Origin: a virus | Taxonomy: Duplodnaviria; Caudoviricetes | Direction: 5' to 3' (one strand) | DNA: 64,000 nt | IMG/VR virus record: IMGVR_UViG_3300021256_000062 | Span: 94,918-158,917 of that record | Part shown: positions 4,295 to 15,725 of the stretch, piece after piece | How positions within the stretch are numbered: the stretch's first letter is position 1 | Layout: the number at the start of each line of letters is the position of its first letter | Translations under genes and position numbers: made by a program | The notes under the pieces: model-generated | What the model saw: the letters and a program-made list of their open reading frames with translations, nothing else | What the model was told of the DNA's origin: nothing | Database searches by the model: none

Positions 4295-4371
4295 TGGTGG
4301 ACCCTACAGGACTTGAACCTGTGACAACTCGGTTATGAGCCGAGAGTTCTAACCAACTGAACTAAAGGTCC
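4295..4371 (-). tRNA. tRNA-Ile2/Met(CAT), Ile2-like body
   Basis: GGACCTTTAGTTCAGTTGGTTAGA start typical of Bacillota Ile2; CTCGG-CTCATAA-CCGAG. Confidence 0.88.
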
Positions 4372-4377
4372 ATTTAC

Positions 4378-4446
4378 TAGATACATATTATAATCGGACA
4401 AATTTTCAGTTCGTAGATTTTAATAGTAATTTGCTGTTAGTATCTA
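4378..4446 (-). ncRNA. Clamp RNA 2 displaying a Phe(GAA) anticodon stem-loop
   Basis: TAGATAC-TAACAGCAA ... GTATCTA; apical ACGAA-CTGAAAA-TTTGT. Confidence 0.7.
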
Positions 4447-4511
4447 AATGTTCCTAATATTCTTTTAATGATGTATGATAGATTGCAACACAATTGATGA
4501 TTTATTTTTGC

Positions 4512-9081: not shown

Positions 9082-10713
9082 TTATAACCAAGAAGGTTTA
9101 TCCATCTTTGATATAGTATTTCCAGACCACTTAATTCCAGCTTTAGTGACATTCTCTAAATATGGAATTGAATCATATGTCTTAACATCTAATTCCTTAA
9201 CTAGTGCTAAGAATGGGTCAGTCTCACCATTTAACACCATATTTAAAGTATTAACTGAGAATCCTGATACTAATACAACACCATTTTCATTTTGTGTTAA
9301 TGGAATAGTGTTTGTTCTAGAACATACATTCCAGAATACTAATTTAGGTAATTTATATCCTGCACTAGCATATTTTGTTTGCGCATTTCTAAATACATTA
9401 CTATCACTATTAAAATGATTATAACCATATGAAGAATCAAATTCCATATCTGAAATAATTAAAATTTGTTCAGGCATATCTTCAGGTTTAACCTTACCTT
9501 CAACAGCTGTCTTTAAGATTAAATTGAATACATTCTCAATATTAGTGTTTGAACAATCACTATAACAAAGACAAGTTTGTAATTTAGAATGTAATGATTG
9601 ACACATAGATAAATCTACTAATTTAGCTTGAGATGAGAAAGTAATAAACTTATCTTTAAATGTATCATTTAATCTTTCTGAACAATAAATTGCCAATGCA
9701 GTTGATACATCTAATGCGGTTGTATTACCAGAACCTACTTTTGACGTCATTGAACCTGAACCATCTCTAACAACGATTGTGTTATTTAAACCATCTTTTT
9801 GTTTTAGGTTCTTCCATAATTGTTCTAATGCTTCATCATAATCAGTTAAATGTGAATACCATCCATCACAATTAAAGTATTTAGTAACAATTTCGTGTGG
9901 GAAGTTAACTGAAGAATTAATCTTTACTTCCTTACCATCCTTATCTACACCTACTCTTAATGCAGCTAAGAAATCTCTACGTCTTTCTTCATCGTGTCTT
10001 AAGAAAGCATCCTTATACTTTAAGTTTGCTTTTGATGGAACTTGATTATAATCAATCTTACTCCATTCATTTGCAGATGTATAAGTTTCAATTACCTTTA
10101 AGTATGCTCTTAACTTTGATAAAAGTTGTCTATACTCTTTAGATGTTGCACCAAATGATTTGATGAAAATCTTTGCCAATTTCTTTGTTTTAGGAGATGA
10201 TGCATTTTCAGATGGCATCCACTTAGCTAATAATGAAATTGGTTTGTTATTATTCATATTAGTGAAATCTTGTTTTAATTGACTTAAAACAGTTTGTACC
10301 ATAAAATCTTGATATTCAGTACCAATGAAAACAAATAAGTCATCATATCTACCAAATTCAACTATTTGAGTCTTAATTAAGTCTTTAACAATTTCATCTT
10401 TATTCTTGAAATCTGAAACCTTAATTAAATGATTTAAGGCTACTCTAAATAATCTTCTTTCACCTAATCCTTCTCTTACTCCTCTTACATAGAATAAGAA
10501 TTTTAATAAGTATCTAGCATCACCTTGTTCAGCTAATACTAAATCAATATCCTTACAAATATCAGCATCTGTAAGTTTACGATATGAAGTTACCTTGAAA
10601 TTCATATCTAGTAATGGGTGGAAAGTAGTCTTATATCCCTCCATACCATTTTCAGTAATTGATACATTGTTTTGTACCTTTTTCATAGTTCCATAAAAAT
10701 CCATATTATCCAT
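9082..10713 (-). CDS. DUF2828-family protein (TROVE/Ro60-like helical domain + C-terminal vWA)
   Basis: TENG..., FYVRGVREGLGERRLF, FGRYDDL, LLAKWMPSE, IDYNQVPSKA, MIDAS VRDGSGSM, IISDMEFD, FWNV, VSGFS. Confidence 0.85.
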   Translation of the reverse strand: MDNMDFYGTMKKVQNNVSITENGMEGYKTTFHPLLDMNFKVTSYRKLTDADICKDIDLVLAEQGDARYLLKFLFYVRGVREGLGERRLFRVALNHLIKVSDFKNKDEIVKDLIKTQIVEFGRYDDLFVFIGTEYQDFMVQTVLSQLKQDFTNMNNNKPISLLAKWMPSENASSPKTKKLAKIFIKSFGATSKEYRQLLSKLRAYLKVIETYTSANEWSKIDYNQVPSKANLKYKDAFLRHDEERRRDFLAALRVGVDKDGKEVKINSSVNFPHEIVTKYFNCDGWYSHLTDYDEALEQLWKNLKQKDGLNNTIVVRDGSGSMTSKVGSGNTTALDVSTALAIYCSERLNDTFKDKFITFSSQAKLVDLSMCQSLHSKLQTCLCYSDCSNTNIENVFNLILKTAVEGKVKPEDMPEQILIISDMEFDSSYGYNHFNSDSNVFRNAQTKYASAGYKLPKLVFWNVCSRTNTIPLTQNENGVVLVSGFSVNTLNMVLNGETDPFLALVKELDVKTYDSIPYLENVTKAGIKWSGNTISKMDKPSWL

Positions 10714-10720
10714 CCTTTCT

Positions 10721-10782
10721 AGACACTACCATGTATATCCAACAACCATTAGACTTTACACTATTTGTTGCTGTATGTGTCT
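10721..10782 (-). promoter_or_regulatory. Clamp RNA 8 in the 5' leader of the DUF2828 gene, abutting its RBS
   Basis: AGACAC-ATACAGCAA ... GTGTCT immediately followed by AGAAAGG-ATG. Confidence 0.75.
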
Positions 10783-10802
10783 TATGTATTTTTACAAGTT
10801 CT

Positions 10803-10831
10803 ATTATACCATTATTTAATTACTTTGTCAA
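10803..10831 (-). promoter_or_regulatory. sigmaA-type promoter of the DUF2828/clamp-RNA operon
   Basis: TTGACA-17-TATAAT. Confidence 0.85.
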
Positions 10832-10864
10832 CCCCTTAAAATTGACTAATTAATTTTTTATAAT

Positions 10865-12030
10865 TAAGATGTCCATGTAATACCTACTCATAGGTGTTAA
10901 CAACTCCTTAGGACTGAAGGGGAAGTGGTTTACATCCTTCGTATACTCCTCAAAGTATACCCGCTATTAATTAACTAAATTAAGGCTCAATATTATCTAT
11001 GGATAATATTGGAATAACTTGTGCTATTCTTTTACGCACTTAACCGCACGATTTATCTGTCGCCATCAAGGTTTATGGGTGCGACCCTGAGTTTGCTCTC
11101 TTCTACGCTGTATTCAGACTTCGCACTTATGGTAGCGAGGCACCAATAATTTTAACTGAACAAGGGTCGTTGTATTTCACATTCAGACCCTCAAAACTGT
11201 CAAGTGAATGATATTCTAGGTGTCATTCCCACTATTAATTTGTATTCAACAAGATACTCATCTAAGAGTACCTTGTGTTTTTGAATGTTTTCAGGCTAAC
11301 ATACAACCTTTCGCTAATCTAATAGCACTTTGTGAGGCTCAACCTCACTTGTCTTGAATAATAATTTGGTTGGACTTGAACCAACAATGGCTTTTAACCG
11401 ATAGGCTATGTGTTGCCAATCCCTATCTCATCGTTTCACCCATAAGGCATCTTTTTATTGGATTGAACGCTTGTGATTTCCCTCATTAATCTACAAATTA
11501 TTATTTTATATCAAGAGTTCCCTTTGCTAACGTGTCAGGTGGGTAGACCTATAATGTCGCAGCTCACATCTGCTAGACATTTACTTTTCGAACTGCTTAA
11601 GTCAGTTATTCCTACTTCGCAACTCAGTCCATTACGCTGTTTAATTTTTTCTACATTATAGGCCAAACGGGTTTAAATGCTACTTATGGTTCTCACATAA
11701 TCTTTCCGAAACTAAGTCGGTGCTTCGCATACTAGGAATAGTAAACATAATGTAAACTATTACGCTATTTGATGTATATCCCACATGATTAGGAGTTCTC
11801 ATTTAAATTGTAGTCACTATATAGTTTTCCTTCTAAGATTTCATTTTATATAGCGAAAAAATCAAATCCGCTAGTGTGTGATTAAAACCACATCCACCGC
11901 CACCTTATTTTTCTAAATAAGGAAAATATTTGCTCTTATTCTATGTTCTTTATATCGAGCTAACTTTTAGGAGTTTTTCATCCAATATATTTCAAGGACT
12001 AAAGTTAATTGAAATAATTAAGTTTCTCTA
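10865..12030 (-). ncRNA. Large (~1.15 kb) structured ncRNA candidate (GOLLD/ROOL-like class, family unassigned); ends approximate
   Basis: No credible ORF, raised GC, many hairpins and long-range complementarities, embedded tRNA-elbow domain, TGTATAAT -10 at ~12043-12050. Confidence 0.7.
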
Positions 12031-12060
12031 TTGAGATATTATATTATACAATATTTATTT

Positions 12061-12714
12061 TTAATTTTGTCTATAGGCATATAAGTCATCACCTAGATAT
12101 AATTCCTTACCATCATAACCAGAAAGAAAATGACCTCTTCCATCTAATGATAGACATTCTTCTACTATGGCATCAGTATCTAGACCAATAGTTCCATCTT
12201 TAATTAATCTTCTAACTTGTTCTTGTCCAAAATTAGATACAAACCATTGATAAGGGTCTCCTGCATTTTCAACTAAATATGCAGTATATTGTTCTTTTGC
12301 ATCATCTAAATCAACATCATCATTTAAAATAGGATATTCTTCATCTTCATCATCTGAATCATAATGAATATCATCACCTCTAATGAATCCATTTTGTAAT
12401 AATTCTTGAATAAGTTCATCTTCTTCCATTTCATCTACATAGTATTCCATGTCTTCTTGTAGAGCTTCTTCAAACCAATTCTCATTATCTAATGCATTTT
12501 CAACAATCCAATCTTGGAATGATGGAGTAAATGCTTCTAATCCCATTTCATCTATTGAGTTTTCAATATCATTATATGCAGCGTCATCGGCTTCTGAATC
12601 AGTATATACAGCATATTCTTGGTCACCATATTCAAAATGGTCTTCATCATATCCTTCAACGATGTCTTCAACATCACATTCTAAAAATTTTGCCAATTCT
12701 TCAATCTTTTCCAT
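12061..12714 (-). CDS. Highly acidic hypothetical protein
   Basis: 217 aa, D/E rich, own promoter at 12744-12771 (16 nt spacer). Confidence 0.75.
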   Translation of the reverse strand: MEKIEELAKFLECDVEDIVEGYDEDHFEYGDQEYAVYTDSEADDAAYNDIENSIDEMGLEAFTPSFQDWIVENALDNENWFEEALQEDMEYYVDEMEEDELIQELLQNGFIRGDDIHYDSDDEDEEYPILNDDVDLDDAKEQYTAYLVENAGDPYQWFVSNFGQEQVRRLIKDGTIGLDTDAIVEECLSLDGRGHFLSGYDGKELYLGDDLYAYRQN

Positions 12715-12785: not shown

Positions 12786-15725
12786 TTATTTTAAATCTTT
12801 ATCTAAAATTATATCATCATCAGTTAAATCATCTAAATCTAGATAATCATCAACATCAATTTCTTCAATTTCATCATCATCTTCATCTTTAATAATTTTA
12901 ACATTATTTAAATCATAATTATAAATTAAAGTACCATCAATATCATCATTGTACATTGAAATCTCTAAAGTATTACCTTCAGTAGATAGTATGATATCTG
13001 AACTTCCAATATAATCTTCTAATTTTCTCATTAATTCATCATAGAATTCATCATAATCATAAAATTCCCAACCATCTAAATATCTGATTGCCTTTTCTAC
13101 ATTATCATTAAATTTATTTTGTGCATAATTTCTTTCAATTCTTTTTTGTTTCTCTTGGTCATAAGTCTTTATAACTAACACAGGGAACTTTGTATCCCAT
13201 CCAAATAAATCCCCAGCTACCATCATTCTATGAAGACCCTCTTGTCCTGGATAATATGATAAATCAAGAACTGCAATAGGGAATTTCTTCTTCTTATCAG
13301 TGATAACTGTCTTAAGATAATCCAATGTCTTCTTATCATATTCTCTTTGTTGTTTTAAGTCGTTTGCAGTAACTTTCTTATGTTTCTTACTACTGAACAT
13401 ATCTGCACAAGCCTCATAATATTCTTGTGGAGACATTTGAACTATTTCACCAACTAAATTCTTTTTATTCTTATAATAATCAACATCATTACCTAATAAT
13501 AAATCTTTCCATGAACCAGTGGTACCTGTAGTTGATGTATCAAATATATCACTACCATTTACATCTCCTGTACCATAGTCAAAATCATCACTTTCCTTTA
13601 ATTTAGTTCTAAAGTTTTCAATGAACTCTAAACGTTTAGGATTTCCACCTAATACATCAAATAATTTAAAGTTTTTAATGTCTTGATATCTTGAATAGAT
13701 ATATCCATCATCAGTTTTATATTTAAAGTTATAATCATCTCCTACCACATCATATATCTCAAATTCATTAGTATGGTATGAATCAGGACAATAAATAGCA
13801 CATACTTGGTTCTTATCAAAATCATTTACTAAATCAGTACTTAAGTAACCATTTTGATATGCTGCATTTTTCATATCAGTATGAACACAATCATATGCAT
13901 TTGCAACTAAATATAAATTACCTTCAATATATAATCTTTGTGGTTCAGTTTTTGATAATAGGAAATTCTTAACTTGATATGGACTTTCAAACATATATAC
14001 ATCAAAAGCATCTTCATCAAATTTAACCATTTCAGTAAGTGATTCTTTTTTATCCCAATATGAATAGGCAACAGCTAATCTTTGTTTTTGATTTGGATAT
14101 TCTTTTTCAGTTGCACTCATAAATCTTGATATGAAATCTTTTTTAGTTTCATTATCTTTAGGATAAATTTCCAATAATTTACTTTCATTTATGTTATTAC
14201 TATTACTTGGATTCTTATTATCTATTAATTTTATTTGGTTAGGGTAAAAGGTAATGATTTGAGTATCAATACCTGCATTCATCATAGAATTGTATAAAAT
14301 AATTCCATCATAATCTCCCTCGCCTTGAACAGCGTCTATTACATCATAATATGATGTATCATTACTAAAATCATAAGCACCTAATAATGTGAAATACAAA
14401 TCTGGTGTATTTATTCCAAATTCATTGACTATATCTAATTCATTTTCAAAATAATCTTCACCATTGTCGTGTGCTTCTACAAAGTCCCATAACTTATCAT
14501 AGTCTATAATAAAAGGCTTTTCTAAATTTAGATAACATTCTTTTATCTTATTTCCATAGCCTAAAGAGAATTGTTTATTTGGAGTAAAAAATGTAGCATA
14601 TTTAAAAACATCGAAATCTTTATTTGTGGAATGATAACAAACTAATAATCTACCTTGATTATCTCTTACTTTACTATTCTTAAAAAACTCTACTTGCTCA
14701 TTACTAAGTGGGTTTCCTTCGCTATCTACTTCTTGTGATAAGTCTTCATTAAGTTCTTCATTTACAACACAATTATCAAAATCAACCAAACCATAAGTAA
14801 TAACACCACCTTCATCAGCCTTAATGCCGTCATATCCTAGAGATTGAATTAATACATAAAATGGGTATTCTGATGTTATATCGTAAATGTAATTTGAACT
14901 TTCTAACCTAAAACCAAATTGTGAAAGGAATTGTTTTAATTGTGTAGGTGTCATCTCAATTAACTTACAAAAGTTAAGAAATTCTTTGCTGTATTTACCT
15001 TTTACATTCCATATAGATGAACCTATATACCCTACATCTAGCAATTCACATTTAGAAAAATCTATATCTTTACTAAAGACCTTATTACCATATTCTTGAG
15101 CATATTTTTTATTTGGTGTAAACCAAGTAAGTCTATCTTTAGAATTAATTAATTTATCACTATCTTGACCATGATAGACAAGTTCTTCATCTAAACTTGT
15201 ATGTTCACCTACTATGTCAAAGTATCTATCTTCCCACTCATCAAATTGTTTTTCTAACTCATCATAATCTATTTCAGGTATTTCAGTTCTAACAGGTTTT
15301 TTTATCCATCCAGTATATAGAGAATAAACACCATTTGATTTAGCTGGTTGGTTTACATCTTCTACATATAATTCAACTTCTCTACCCTTTACTTTTATTT
15401 CATATTTACTGTTAAATAATGATTTATAGGCATTACAAAGTAATTGCATTATCTTTATGTCATCAGTAGTTCCTAAATCTGCTACTATATGTAAATCAAT
15501 ATCAGACATGTCAGTATAGTTATAATTTGCACTTGAACCTAATAATCTTATATCAACTACATCAAGAGTTAATCCATCTTCTTTTAGGTCATCTAAAAAA
15601 CTATCAGCTATATCTAATAATCTTTCTTTTACATCATCTCTTAATTCATCATCTTCATTCCATAATTTAGGATTAAGTGTATCATTAACTTTTATTTCTT
15701 CATTTAAATTTTTATCTATTTTCAT
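12786..15725 (-). CDS. Polyvalent protein: N-half of a nucleotidyltransferase + 2 ART-PolyVal-like + unknown module + ParB-like domain
   Basis: LNPKLW, GSSANYNY..SDIDLH, ELYVED, GVYS..W; YHG/YHS..FT...A..YG..GYDGI; EGLHR; LxE[ESD] linkers. Confidence 0.75.
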   Translation of the reverse strand: MKIDKNLNEEIKVNDTLNPKLWNEDDELRDDVKERLLDIADSFLDDLKEDGLTLDVVDIRLLGSSANYNYTDMSDIDLHIVADLGTTDDIKIMQLLCNAYKSLFNSKYEIKVKGREVELYVEDVNQPAKSNGVYSLYTGWIKKPVRTEIPEIDYDELEKQFDEWEDRYFDIVGEHTSLDEELVYHGQDSDKLINSKDRLTWFTPNKKYAQEYGNKVFSKDIDFSKCELLDVGYIGSSIWNVKGKYSKEFLNFCKLIEMTPTQLKQFLSQFGFRLESSNYIYDITSEYPFYVLIQSLGYDGIKADEGGVITYGLVDFDNCVVNEELNEDLSQEVDSEGNPLSNEQVEFFKNSKVRDNQGRLLVCYHSTNKDFDVFKYATFFTPNKQFSLGYGNKIKECYLNLEKPFIIDYDKLWDFVEAHDNGEDYFENELDIVNEFGINTPDLYFTLLGAYDFSNDTSYYDVIDAVQGEGDYDGIILYNSMMNAGIDTQIITFYPNQIKLIDNKNPSNSNNINESKLLEIYPKDNETKKDFISRFMSATEKEYPNQKQRLAVAYSYWDKKESLTEMVKFDEDAFDVYMFESPYQVKNFLLSKTEPQRLYIEGNLYLVANAYDCVHTDMKNAAYQNGYLSTDLVNDFDKNQVCAIYCPDSYHTNEFEIYDVVGDDYNFKYKTDDGYIYSRYQDIKNFKLFDVLGGNPKRLEFIENFRTKLKESDDFDYGTGDVNGSDIFDTSTTGTTGSWKDLLLGNDVDYYKNKKNLVGEIVQMSPQEYYEACADMFSSKKHKKVTANDLKQQREYDKKTLDYLKTVITDKKKKFPIAVLDLSYYPGQEGLHRMMVAGDLFGWDTKFPVLVIKTYDQEKQKRIERNYAQNKFNDNVEKAIRYLDGWEFYDYDEFYDELMRKLEDYIGSSDIILSTEGNTLEISMYNDDIDGTLIYNYDLNNVKIIKDEDDDEIEEIDVDDYLDLDDLTDDDIILDKDLK

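What the first reader, a model, noticed from the sequence alone, without database searches (positions are those of the whole stretch)
10865..12030. ~1.15 kb ornate non-coding RNA candidate next to the DUF2828 operon
Seen: the largest ORF-free stretch in the window, GC-richer than its flanks, with dense hairpins (e.g. 10941-10960, 10988-11011, and others near 11163, 11249, 11332, 11903) and long-range complements (11073-11081 with 11437-11445; 11548-11557 with 11653-11662; 11357-11368 with 11494-11505). An extended -10 lies just upstream. Known: GOLLD and ROOL are large phage- and tRNA-array-associated RNAs. I could not match this one to either from memory and it is longer than typical examples, so it may be a variant or a new class.
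Basis: partly seen in the sequence, partly recalled or inferred. Interest (0 to 1): 0.8.

Follow-up and report, generated by a model that had tools for sequence, protein, structure and literature searches.

The report
New modular large phage RNA
The 1.3 kb gene-free gap in this large rumen-type phage encodes a real, previously undescribed structured RNA of about 0.85-1.2 kb, built from conserved folded domains plus a plug-in tRNA look-alike; it sits beside the phage's tRNA genes as the known giant RNAs ROOL and GOLLD do, but is not related to them.

Summary
Window 10714-12060 is non-coding in all frames and codes, GC-richer than its flanks, and every listed hairpin and complement is exact. It is headed by the phage's recurrent RNA-gene promoter box (12042-12051). 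Homologs exist in only four other related phage contigs, always co-oriented with the tRNA/DUF2828 island. Blocks are 94-98% identical between genomes whose tRNAs are only 72-86% and DUF2828 DNA 78.5% identical. A diverged copy (L084, ~75%) gives about 14 compensatory base-pair changes across four domains. The anatomy is modular: a ~600-nt backbone, one expansion hairpin with three unrelated sequences, and tRNA-like cassettes present or absent as precise units. Domain order is permuted in L084. No Rfam family matches at E ≤ 10; the ROOL model scores 379 bits on a true ROOL in a related phage but nothing here. Verdict: a new, narrow family of large modular phage RNA, GOLLD/ROOL-like in niche only. 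Whether it works as one RNA or is cut into several is open; function is inferred, not shown. First readers of this scan noted the same element on another genome.

The parts
12042..12051 (-). Promoter box TTGTATAATA heading the RNA; predicted transcription start near 12036
   Evidence: 14 copies in the window against 1.4 expected, 12 on the minus strand, in front of tRNA sub-arrays and a handle RNA. Exactly one box heads the backbone in each of W, G001, L082 and L084, with none inside it.
11926..12010 (-). Domain A1 (5' domain): closing stem plus inner hairpins
   Evidence: Nearly invariant in W, G001 and L082. L084 copy is ~76% identical, with 3 pairs changed on both sides and kept.
11846..11925 (-). 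Core: hairpin H1 (11903-11922), invariant G-rich tract (11888-11903), hairpins H2 and H3
   Evidence: The only block found in all five genomes. C-G to U-A compensatory change in H1 in L084 and L085. 96.8% of cells paired against 38-62% in slid registers.
11662..11845 (-). Domain A3: five helices including a 160-nt-range closing helix
   Evidence: 33 pairs, 98.5% paired, 6 pairs changed on both sides, 0 of 500 shuffles reach this, slid controls give 0-1. U.G pairs fit the minus strand only.
11546..11664 (-). V1 expansion hairpin (12-bp closing stem in W)
   Evidence: Three unrelated sequences of 108, 41 and 72 nt in W, G001 and L082. Each folds as a self-contained stem-loop closed at the same conserved GGC...GUC junction.
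11509..11548 (-). Block B1: C-rich strand complementary to the core G tract; its 3' end forms half of the stem that carries T1
   Evidence: Conserved in W, G001 and L082. A core:B1 duplex of 12 bp is predicted. In L084 the partner is retained but lies 5' of the core, and is the best duplex in that gap at -18.5 kcal/mol.
11357..11508 (-). T1: tRNA-like cassette with acceptor-like stem extended to 12 bp, D arm, T arm, and an ~85-nt insert in place of the anticodon arm
   Evidence: Rfam tRNA 30.5 bits with 67- and 18-nt insertions. Standard ARAGORN finds nothing there. With introns allowed the anticodon calls disagree, Arg(cct) in W and Ala(ggc) in G001. Present in W and G001 and precisely absent from L082, where the host hairpin is closed by a 5-nt loop. 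One A-U to G-C compensatory change in the insert.
11330..11356 (-). Block B2: second half of the T1-bearing stem plus a 7-bp hairpin; the T2 insertion site lies at 11329/11330
   Evidence: Invariant in the three genomes. G001 and L082 carry a second tRNA-like cassette T2 (128 and 96 nt) exactly here; W has none.
11200..11329 (-). Domain C: three hairpins including an 11-bp stem
   Evidence: 94% identical in G001 and L082. No diverged copy is available, so there is no covariation test.
11155..11220 (-). Block D hairpin
   Evidence: 89% identical to L082 6105-6170, which sits about 700 nt further from block C there.
10984..11127 (-). F' piece: decayed promoter box (11100-11115) followed by two or three hairpins
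   Evidence: About 70% identical to L084 3559-3665 and G001 L140 3461-3565. The terminal hairpin is kept through at least 3 compensatory changes. In G001 this piece follows an intact second promoter box and leads into tRNA-Met.
10835..10983 (-). 3' tail with local hairpins, unique to this phage
   Evidence: No homolog in any locus or genome searched. It ends at the DUF2828 promoter 10831-10803. Whether it belongs to the RNA is unknown.

Best explanation
The gap is a gene for a previously undescribed, modular, structured non-coding RNA on the minus strand. Shown: it is non-coding. It is headed by the same promoter box that precedes this phage's tRNA sub-arrays. It is conserved far better than the neighbouring tRNA and protein genes. 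At least four of its domains (A1, core, A3, F') keep their helices through compensatory changes. It carries an expansion hairpin and optional tRNA-like cassettes grafted at defined helix positions. Inferred: one primary transcript starts near 12036 and runs at least to about 11200 (about 0.85 kb). In this phage it probably continues to about 10840 (1.2 kb), because the internal promoter has decayed and no terminator is seen. The roughly 600-nt backbone folds into a multi-domain particle. The tRNA-like elbow (T loop plus D loop, no anticodon arm, no CCA) is displayed at the tip of a long helix. Proposed mechanism: made together with the phage tRNAs, the RNA acts as a stable scaffold or decoy that engages proteins which recognise the tRNA elbow, such as host tRNA-targeting defence or processing enzymes, as part of this phage's tRNA-centred island (27 tRNAs, tmRNA, Ro60-like DUF2828 with Y-like RNAs). 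In niche it parallels GOLLD and ROOL, but it is not homologous to them. My odds: real structured RNA about 0.85; functions as one large RNA about 0.5; decoy or scaffold role about 0.3.
For: - Non-coding.
- Minus strand: homologs are always co-oriented with DUF2828 and the tRNAs, U.G pairs fit only that strand, and the MFE is 16 kcal/mol lower on it.
- Promoter box is enriched 10-fold and heads the RNA genes; there is one box per backbone in four genomes.
- Blocks are 94-98% identical against 72-86% for tRNAs and 78.5% for DUF2828 DNA in the same genome pair.
- Covariation: A3 has 6 compensatory pairs, 0 of 500 shuffles; A1 has 3; core has 1-2; F' has at least 3; the T1 insert has 1.
- V1 is three unrelated hairpins at one junction.
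- T1 and T2 are present or absent as exact units.
- A true ROOL in a related DUF2828 phage sits inside its tRNA array on the same strand, which is the same niche.
- GOLLD sometimes carries tRNAs in its linker (bioRxiv 10.1101/2024.12.08.627333).
Against: - No expression data.
- Only five genomes, three of them near-identical, so covariation rests mainly on one diverged copy (L084).
- Domain order is permuted in L084 and only the core is present in L085, which fits semi-autonomous modules as well as one fold.
- No long-range helix linking distant domains has clean covariation: core:B1 is retained in L084 but in a different register and order, and is absent in L085.
- Identity of 94-98% could reflect recent recombination between co-circulating phages, not constraint.
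- Folding z-scores are only about -2.
- No terminator, so the 3' end is undefined.
- The decoy or scaffold role is an inference from context only.
Confidence: 0.55

Rival explanations
1. An array of independent small structured RNAs (A1, core, A3, T1, C, D, F' and so on). They are co-transcribed like the tRNA array and cut apart, perhaps at the tRNA-like elements by RNase P or RNase Z. There would then be no single 1 kb functional RNA.
For: Modules occur in different orders and combinations in the five genomes, and the core stands alone in L085. Cassettes come and go as units. The covariation found is all within local domains. The phage already makes many small Y-like RNAs in the same island (notes; handle check). 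tRNA-like elements are known processing signals (general knowledge).
Against: There are no internal promoter boxes or terminators in the backbone. T1 is embedded in a 12-bp extended helix, with no free acceptor end and no CCA. V1 and T1 behave like expansions at helix tips of a larger fold. Complementarity between the core and B1, which lie ~350 nt apart, is retained across a rearrangement. The backbone order is identical in three genomes.
Confidence: 0.3
2. A recombination scrapyard: decayed tRNA genes, dead promoters and shuffled fragments in a hot spot of phage mosaicism, recently exchanged between phages and without function.
For: Mosaic block structure with sharp boundaries. A decayed promoter box at 11100-11115. 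tRNA-like elements that are not tRNAs. High identity fits recent exchange. Distribution is very narrow.
Against: About 14 compensatory pair changes against the 75%-identical L084 copy. A conserved promoter sits at the same place in four genomes. Three unrelated V1 sequences all form hairpins at one junction. T1 and T2 are not recent copies of any real tRNA.
Confidence: 0.07
3. A highly divergent member of ROOL or GOLLD that the Rfam models fail to recognise.
For: Same niche (phage, next to a tRNA array, rumen-type metagenomes); backbone size of about 600 nt is close to ROOL's 581 nt (PMC5737381); tRNA-like elements are embedded, as tRNAs are in the GOLLD linker (bioRxiv 10.1101/2024.12.08.627333).
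Against: No hit to either family at E <= 10 with lax filters in three copies. The ROOL model finds nothing in the whole genome or in G001, yet scores 379 bits on a true ROOL in a related phage. GOLLD has a conserved 3' and a variable 5' region; here the 5' part is conserved and the 3' part is variable.
Confidence: 0.03
4. A long cis-regulatory leader of the DUF2828 gene.
For: It lies directly upstream of DUF2828, on the same strand, with no terminator between them.
Against: DUF2828 has its own perfect promoter at 10831-10803 and its own handle-bearing leader. In L082 the RNA lies downstream of DUF2828, and in G001 it is 8 kb away, ahead of the tRNA array.
Confidence: 0.03

Closest known systems
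ROOL RNA (Rfam RF03087; Weinberg et al. 2017, PMC5737381)
   Same: A large structured RNA of phages and prophages, first found in rumen metagenomes, typically next to tRNA genes. The backbone here (~600 nt) is of similar size. A true ROOL in a related DUF2828 phage sits in the same kind of place, inside a co-oriented tRNA array.
   Different: No sequence or structure match to the ROOL model at any threshold. Carries tRNA-like cassettes and a hypervariable expansion hairpin. Domain order differs between genomes. Known from only five related phage contigs, not from several phyla.
GOLLD RNA (Weinberg et al. 2009; cryo-EM in bioRxiv 10.1101/2024.12.08.627333)
   Same: A phage-borne RNA of over 800 nt near tRNA islands. 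Part of the molecule is conserved and part is variable, and tRNAs are sometimes embedded in a linker, which parallels the T1 and T2 cassettes here.
   Different: No Rfam match. Polarity is reversed: here the 5' part is conserved and the 3' part varies. The embedded elements are tRNA mimics without an anticodon arm, not tRNA genes. Oligomeric cage formation is untested.
Bacterial and phage Y RNAs of the YrlA type with Ro60/Rsr (Rfam RF02553), and the 'handle' RNAs of this phage
   Same: Same genomic island, and both display tRNA-like modules on a helical stem. The gene next door encodes a Ro60-like DUF2828/DUF7788 protein (PHROG 'RNA-binding protein').
   Different: Ten times larger. No YrlA hit inside the region. 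The handle motif occurs only in the DUF2828 leader at 10721-10782, not in the candidate. The tRNA-like cassette is not circularly permuted. Linkage to DUF2828 is loose.

Membership tests
ROOL (RF03087) | Match to the Rfam covariance model at or above 99.1 bits | tested here: not met
   No hit at E <= 10 in W, G001 or L082. No hit at E <= 0.01 in the whole genome or in G001. The positive control G042 scores 379.2 bits.
ROOL (RF03087) | Phage or prophage location close to tRNA genes | tested here: met
   T4-like phage (Gp23 capsid); 27 tRNAs and a tmRNA lie within 2-9 kb on the same strand.
ROOL (RF03087) | [quoted passage not shown] | not testable with these tools
   Too few diverged homologs to derive a full consensus structure. 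Only local helices have been verified.
GOLLD | Match to the Rfam GOLLD model | tested here: not met
   All-family scans at the gathering threshold and at E <= 10 list no GOLLD hit. A GOLLD-only genome search was not run, because my recalled accession was wrong.
GOLLD | Universally conserved 3' region with a less conserved 5' region, and tRNAs sometimes in the linker (bioRxiv 10.1101/2024.12.08.627333) | tested here: not met
   Here the 5' 0.85 kb is conserved and the 3' 0.35 kb is variable. The embedded elements are tRNA-like, not tRNAs.
YrlA / Y RNA (RF02553) and this phage's handle RNAs | Ro-binding stem or handle motif closing a tRNA-like module | tested here: not met
   No YrlA hit in 10600-12200 at E <= 10. 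The handle motif is found only at 10774, in the DUF2828 leader.
tRNA gene (RF00005), for cassette T1 | Cloverleaf with an anticodon arm and a consistent anticodon | tested here: not met
   30.5 bits, reached only with 67- and 18-nt insertions. Standard ARAGORN finds no gene there. With introns allowed, the call is Arg(cct) in W and Ala(ggc) in G001.
Self-splicing intron or known ribozyme | Match to Rfam group I, group II or small-ribozyme models | tested here: not met
   None listed at E <= 10, apart from a 14-bit chance hit outside the element in L082.

The most novel reading that the evidence does not exclude
This is a new class of giant phage RNA that is the functional counterpart of ROOL and GOLLD in a clade of rumen T4-like phages. 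It would be a ~600-nt folded backbone that tolerates circular permutation of its domains and serves as a platform onto which tRNA-elbow mimics are grafted, acting in the phage-host conflict over tRNAs or forming a higher-order RNA assembly.
Probability: 0.35. Interest if true: 0.8.

Novelty: new variant of a known kind. Interest (0 to 1): 0.62.

Why it matters
Large, protein-independent structured RNAs are rare in bacteria and phages, and each new family has opened new biology. ROOL and GOLLD were recently shown to form RNA-only cages, and their function is still unknown. This locus occupies the same niche in a phage clade that lacks them, and it has features that can be tested directly:

- plug-in tRNA-like cassettes at defined helix positions;
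- an expansion hairpin that is wholly replaced between near-identical copies;
- a domain order that differs between relatives.

Together these amount to a natural experiment in modular RNA architecture. They may also show why large phage RNAs travel with tRNA arrays. The family is very narrow (five metagenomic contigs) and has no cultured host, which limits its immediate reach.

Tried and rejected
- BLAST of the gap against 50,697 phage records found no match.
- Single-protein back-translation scans for DUF2828 and the 217-aa neighbour in IMG/VR found nothing.
- nhmmer and blastn of the gap against 80 DUF2828 loci gave only tRNA-like or handle-like words.
The 70-80% identical DUF2828 relatives from ENA and Logan, which are the best source of further homologs, could not be fetched.
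- The core 21-mer scan hit only G001 in viral contigs and two chance coding hits in GC-rich bacterial MAGs. A host origin is therefore unsupported.
- BLAST and two covariance models over 50 related phage genomes and 96 loci found no further members.
- Alternative genetic codes and small ORFs were rejected: stops are dense, and L084 has frame-breaking indels.
- An intron-bearing tRNA reading of T1 was rejected.
- An antisense target or repeat within the phage genome was not found.
- The T1-to-F' 9-nt complement is exact, but about what chance gives, and its one covarying position is equally explained by a local hairpin.
- The MFE fold of L084 alone was uninformative (z = -0.9).
- The hairpin shared by B1/B2 and G001's T2 insert is not a widespread motif.
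- RF01998 was a wrongly remembered accession (a group II fragment, not GOLLD), so one search carries no weight.

Full report
**What is there.** The window belongs to a 159 kb IMG/VR virus record of a T4-like phage (Gp23 capsid). Between a 217-aa ORF of unknown family (12061-12714) and a DUF2828/DUF7788 gene (9082-10713; PHROG 'RNA-binding protein') lies a 1347-nt gap. All genes, 27 tRNAs and a tmRNA in this part of the genome are on the minus strand. The gap has 25-42 stop codons in every frame, and no long frame opens under any stop-codon recoding. Its GC content is 0.36-0.39 against 0.26-0.31 in the flanks. Taken alone, the statistical excess is modest: inverted repeats are about twice expectation (p about 0.04), and folding z is about -2 on both strands. 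The gap is the second-largest ORF-free stretch; the larger one is the tRNA array.

**Strand and promoter.** The motif TTGTATAATA occurs 14 times in the window against 1.4 expected. Twelve copies are on the minus strand, directly ahead of tRNA sub-arrays (4854, 7562, 8664) and of a handle RNA (49838). One copy lies at 12042-12051, about 30 nt before conservation begins. W, G001, L082 and L084 each have exactly one such box heading the element and none inside the backbone. Homologs always have the orientation of DUF2828 and the tRNAs. Several verified pairs are U.G on the minus strand only, and the minus strand folds 16 kcal/mol better. No terminator is detectable.

**Relatives.** Phage GenBank records hold nothing similar. 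I used an alignment of DUF2828 homologs to fetch 80 viral and 50 metagenomic loci, and also searched whole related genomes. This turned up four homologs:
- G001 (IMGVR_UViG_3300021399_000106), where the element lies ahead of the tRNA array, 8 kb from DUF2828;
- L082, where it lies downstream of DUF2828;
- L084, where it lies upstream;
- L085, which has only the ~90-nt core, between tRNA-Met and tRNA-Gln.

Fifty further DUF2828 phage genomes and 96 loci hold nothing by BLAST or by two covariance models. A 21-nt core pattern hits only G001 in IMG/VR and only chance coding sites in bacterial genomes. The family is real but very narrow.

**Conservation.** Between W and G001 the blocks are 94-97% identical. 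In the same pair, DUF2828 DNA is 78.5% identical and orthologous tRNAs are 72-86%. The flanking ORFs do not align at the DNA level. This means either unusually strong constraint or recent exchange of this segment among co-circulating phages. The data cannot separate the two, but both imply the segment is favoured.

**Anatomy.** After the promoter come, in order:
- domain A1 (12010-11926);
- the core (11925-11846), with hairpin H1, an invariant G-rich tract and hairpins H2 and H3;
- domain A3 (11845-11662);
- V1 (11664-11546);
- B1 (11548-11509);
- the tRNA-like cassette T1 (11508-11357);
- B2 (11356-11330);
- domain C (11329-11200);
- hairpin D (11220-11155);
- F' (11127-10984);
- a unique tail running to the DUF2828 promoter.

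V1 is 108, 41 and 72 nt of unrelated sequence in W, G001 and L082. It is always a self-contained hairpin closed at the same GGC...GUC junction. T1 sits in the loop of a stem formed by the end of B1 and the start of B2; L082 lacks T1 exactly and closes that stem with a 5-nt loop. A second cassette, T2, is inserted after B2 in G001 and L082 but not in W. T1 and T2 both have D and T arms able to form a tRNA elbow, but they have no anticodon arm and no CCA. They are not copies of any real tRNA of these phages, and they get inconsistent anticodon calls.

**Structure is under selection.** L084 carries diverged copies (~75%).

| Domain | Result |
|---|---|
| A3 | 33 predicted pairs, 98.5% paired; 6 pairs keep pairing through changes on both sides; 0 of 500 shuffles reach this; slid registers give 0-1 |
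| A1 | 3 such pairs |
| Core | a C-G to U-A change shared by L084 and L085, plus a G.U to G-C change |
| F' | terminal hairpin rebuilt with at least 3 compensatory pairs |
| T1 insert | one A-U to G-C change between W and G001 |

In total about 14 compensatory pairs are spread over 1 kb.

**One RNA or many.** In favour of one RNA:
- there is a single promoter and no internal boxes or terminators;
- the backbone order is identical in three genomes;
- V1 and T1 behave as expansions at helix tips;
- the core G tract and B1, ~350 nt apart, are complementary (12 bp), and L084 retains a partner, which is the best duplex in its gap.

Against:
- in L084 the order is A1, A3, X, B1', core, so the core has moved behind B1. 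This is either a circular permutation of a folded domain or evidence that the modules are autonomous;
- L085 has the core without a partner;
- in G001, F follows a second intact promoter and leads into tRNA-Met, so the 3' third of the W region is a fused neighbour, not part of a conserved whole.

I put about even odds on a single functional RNA of ~0.85 kb, and 0.3 on an array of processed small RNAs.

**Known families.** No Rfam family reaches its threshold in the window other than tRNA and tmRNA. At E <= 10 with lax filters, the W, G001 and L082 copies give only weak tRNA hits for T1 and T2 plus noise. The ROOL model, run over 50 genomes, finds a true ROOL at 379 bits in G042, between tRNA-Thr and tRNA-Ala on the same strand, but nothing in this genome or in G001. 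That is a working positive control, and it also shows niche equivalence. GOLLD is covered by the all-family scans; my attempt at a GOLLD-only search used a wrong accession and is void. The handle motif of this phage's Y-like RNAs occurs only in the DUF2828 leader and not inside the candidate. From the literature, ROOL averages 581 nt, was found in rumen data, and like GOLLD lies near tRNAs and in prophages (PMC5737381). Both form RNA cages, and GOLLD has a conserved 3' region and a variable 5' region with tRNAs sometimes in the linker (bioRxiv 10.1101/2024.12.08.627333). The present RNA resembles them in niche, size class and embedded tRNA-like parts, but not in sequence, model match or polarity of conservation.

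**Mechanism (inferred).** The RNA is probably made with the tRNAs early in infection. It would fold into a multi-domain particle that presents one or two tRNA elbows on long helices. The surrounding island is devoted to tRNA supply and RNA quality control (27 tRNAs, tmRNA, a Ro60-like protein with tRNA-mimic Y-like RNAs). The most economical role is therefore a decoy or scaffold for proteins that recognise the tRNA elbow. Processing at T1 is the main alternative. No antisense target exists in the phage genome.

**Limits.** There is no expression evidence and no cultured host. Covariation depends largely on one diverged copy. First readers of this scan noted the same element on another genome, as 'ROOL-like' and as a '1.3-kb block of structured RNAs'. 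The ROOL label does not survive testing.

Noticed in passing
L150:1501-2089 (G042 = IMGVR_UViG_3300006201_000003, 135257-135845): A genuine ROOL RNA (379 bits) inside a tRNA array, between tRNA-Thr and tRNA-Ala, in a complete 138 kb DUF2828-bearing phage. It is the only one among the 50 related genomes searched.
   Followed up: partly
window 1957, 4854, 7562, 8664, 12042, 20636, 24950, 35064, 40191, 43748, 49838, 57814 (minus); 27265, 62043 (plus): TTGTATAATA is a 10-fold over-represented promoter-like box. Several copies head tRNA sub-arrays and small RNA genes, so it is probably this phage's own early or RNA-gene promoter type.
   Followed up: partly
window 11888-11904 (minus); also L084, L085, L082, G001: Invariant G-rich tract of the form G2-N-G2-N-G2-N-G2 in a 29% GC phage (3 such tracts in 64 kb against 0.1 expected; the other two lie inside protein-coding ORFs). 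It could pair with B1 or form a two-tier G-quadruplex. L085 keeps it without any C-rich partner.
   Followed up: partly
L132:2065-2080 and L082:5180-5196: The extra 32 nt in G001's T2 cassette contains almost the same small hairpin as the B1/B2 stem that hosts T1. This may be a preferred docking or insertion hairpin. It is not found elsewhere in the family.
   Followed up: partly
L082:4147-4272 and 4334-4455; L085:3781-3887: Sub-threshold YrlA (Y RNA-like) hits of 26-48 bits directly downstream of the DUF2828 homologs, in line with earlier notes that these phages pair a Ro60-like protein with Y-like RNAs.
   Followed up: no
L085: about 1690-1775: A canonical handle RNA (AAGACAC...ACAGCAA...GUGUCUU) closes the 870-nt gap that holds the lone core. 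The whole gap folds with z = -4.1.
   Followed up: no
window 12786-15725 (minus): A 979-aa protein combining a weak nucleotidyltransferase domain with an ART-PolyVal ADP-ribosyltransferase domain, two genes upstream of the RNA. It is a possible host-takeover or counter-defence enzyme.
   Followed up: no
window 11100-11115 (minus): A decayed copy of the promoter box. The homologous site in G001 (L132:2446) is intact and starts a separate unit leading into tRNA-Met, a gene this phage lacks at that place.
   Followed up: yes
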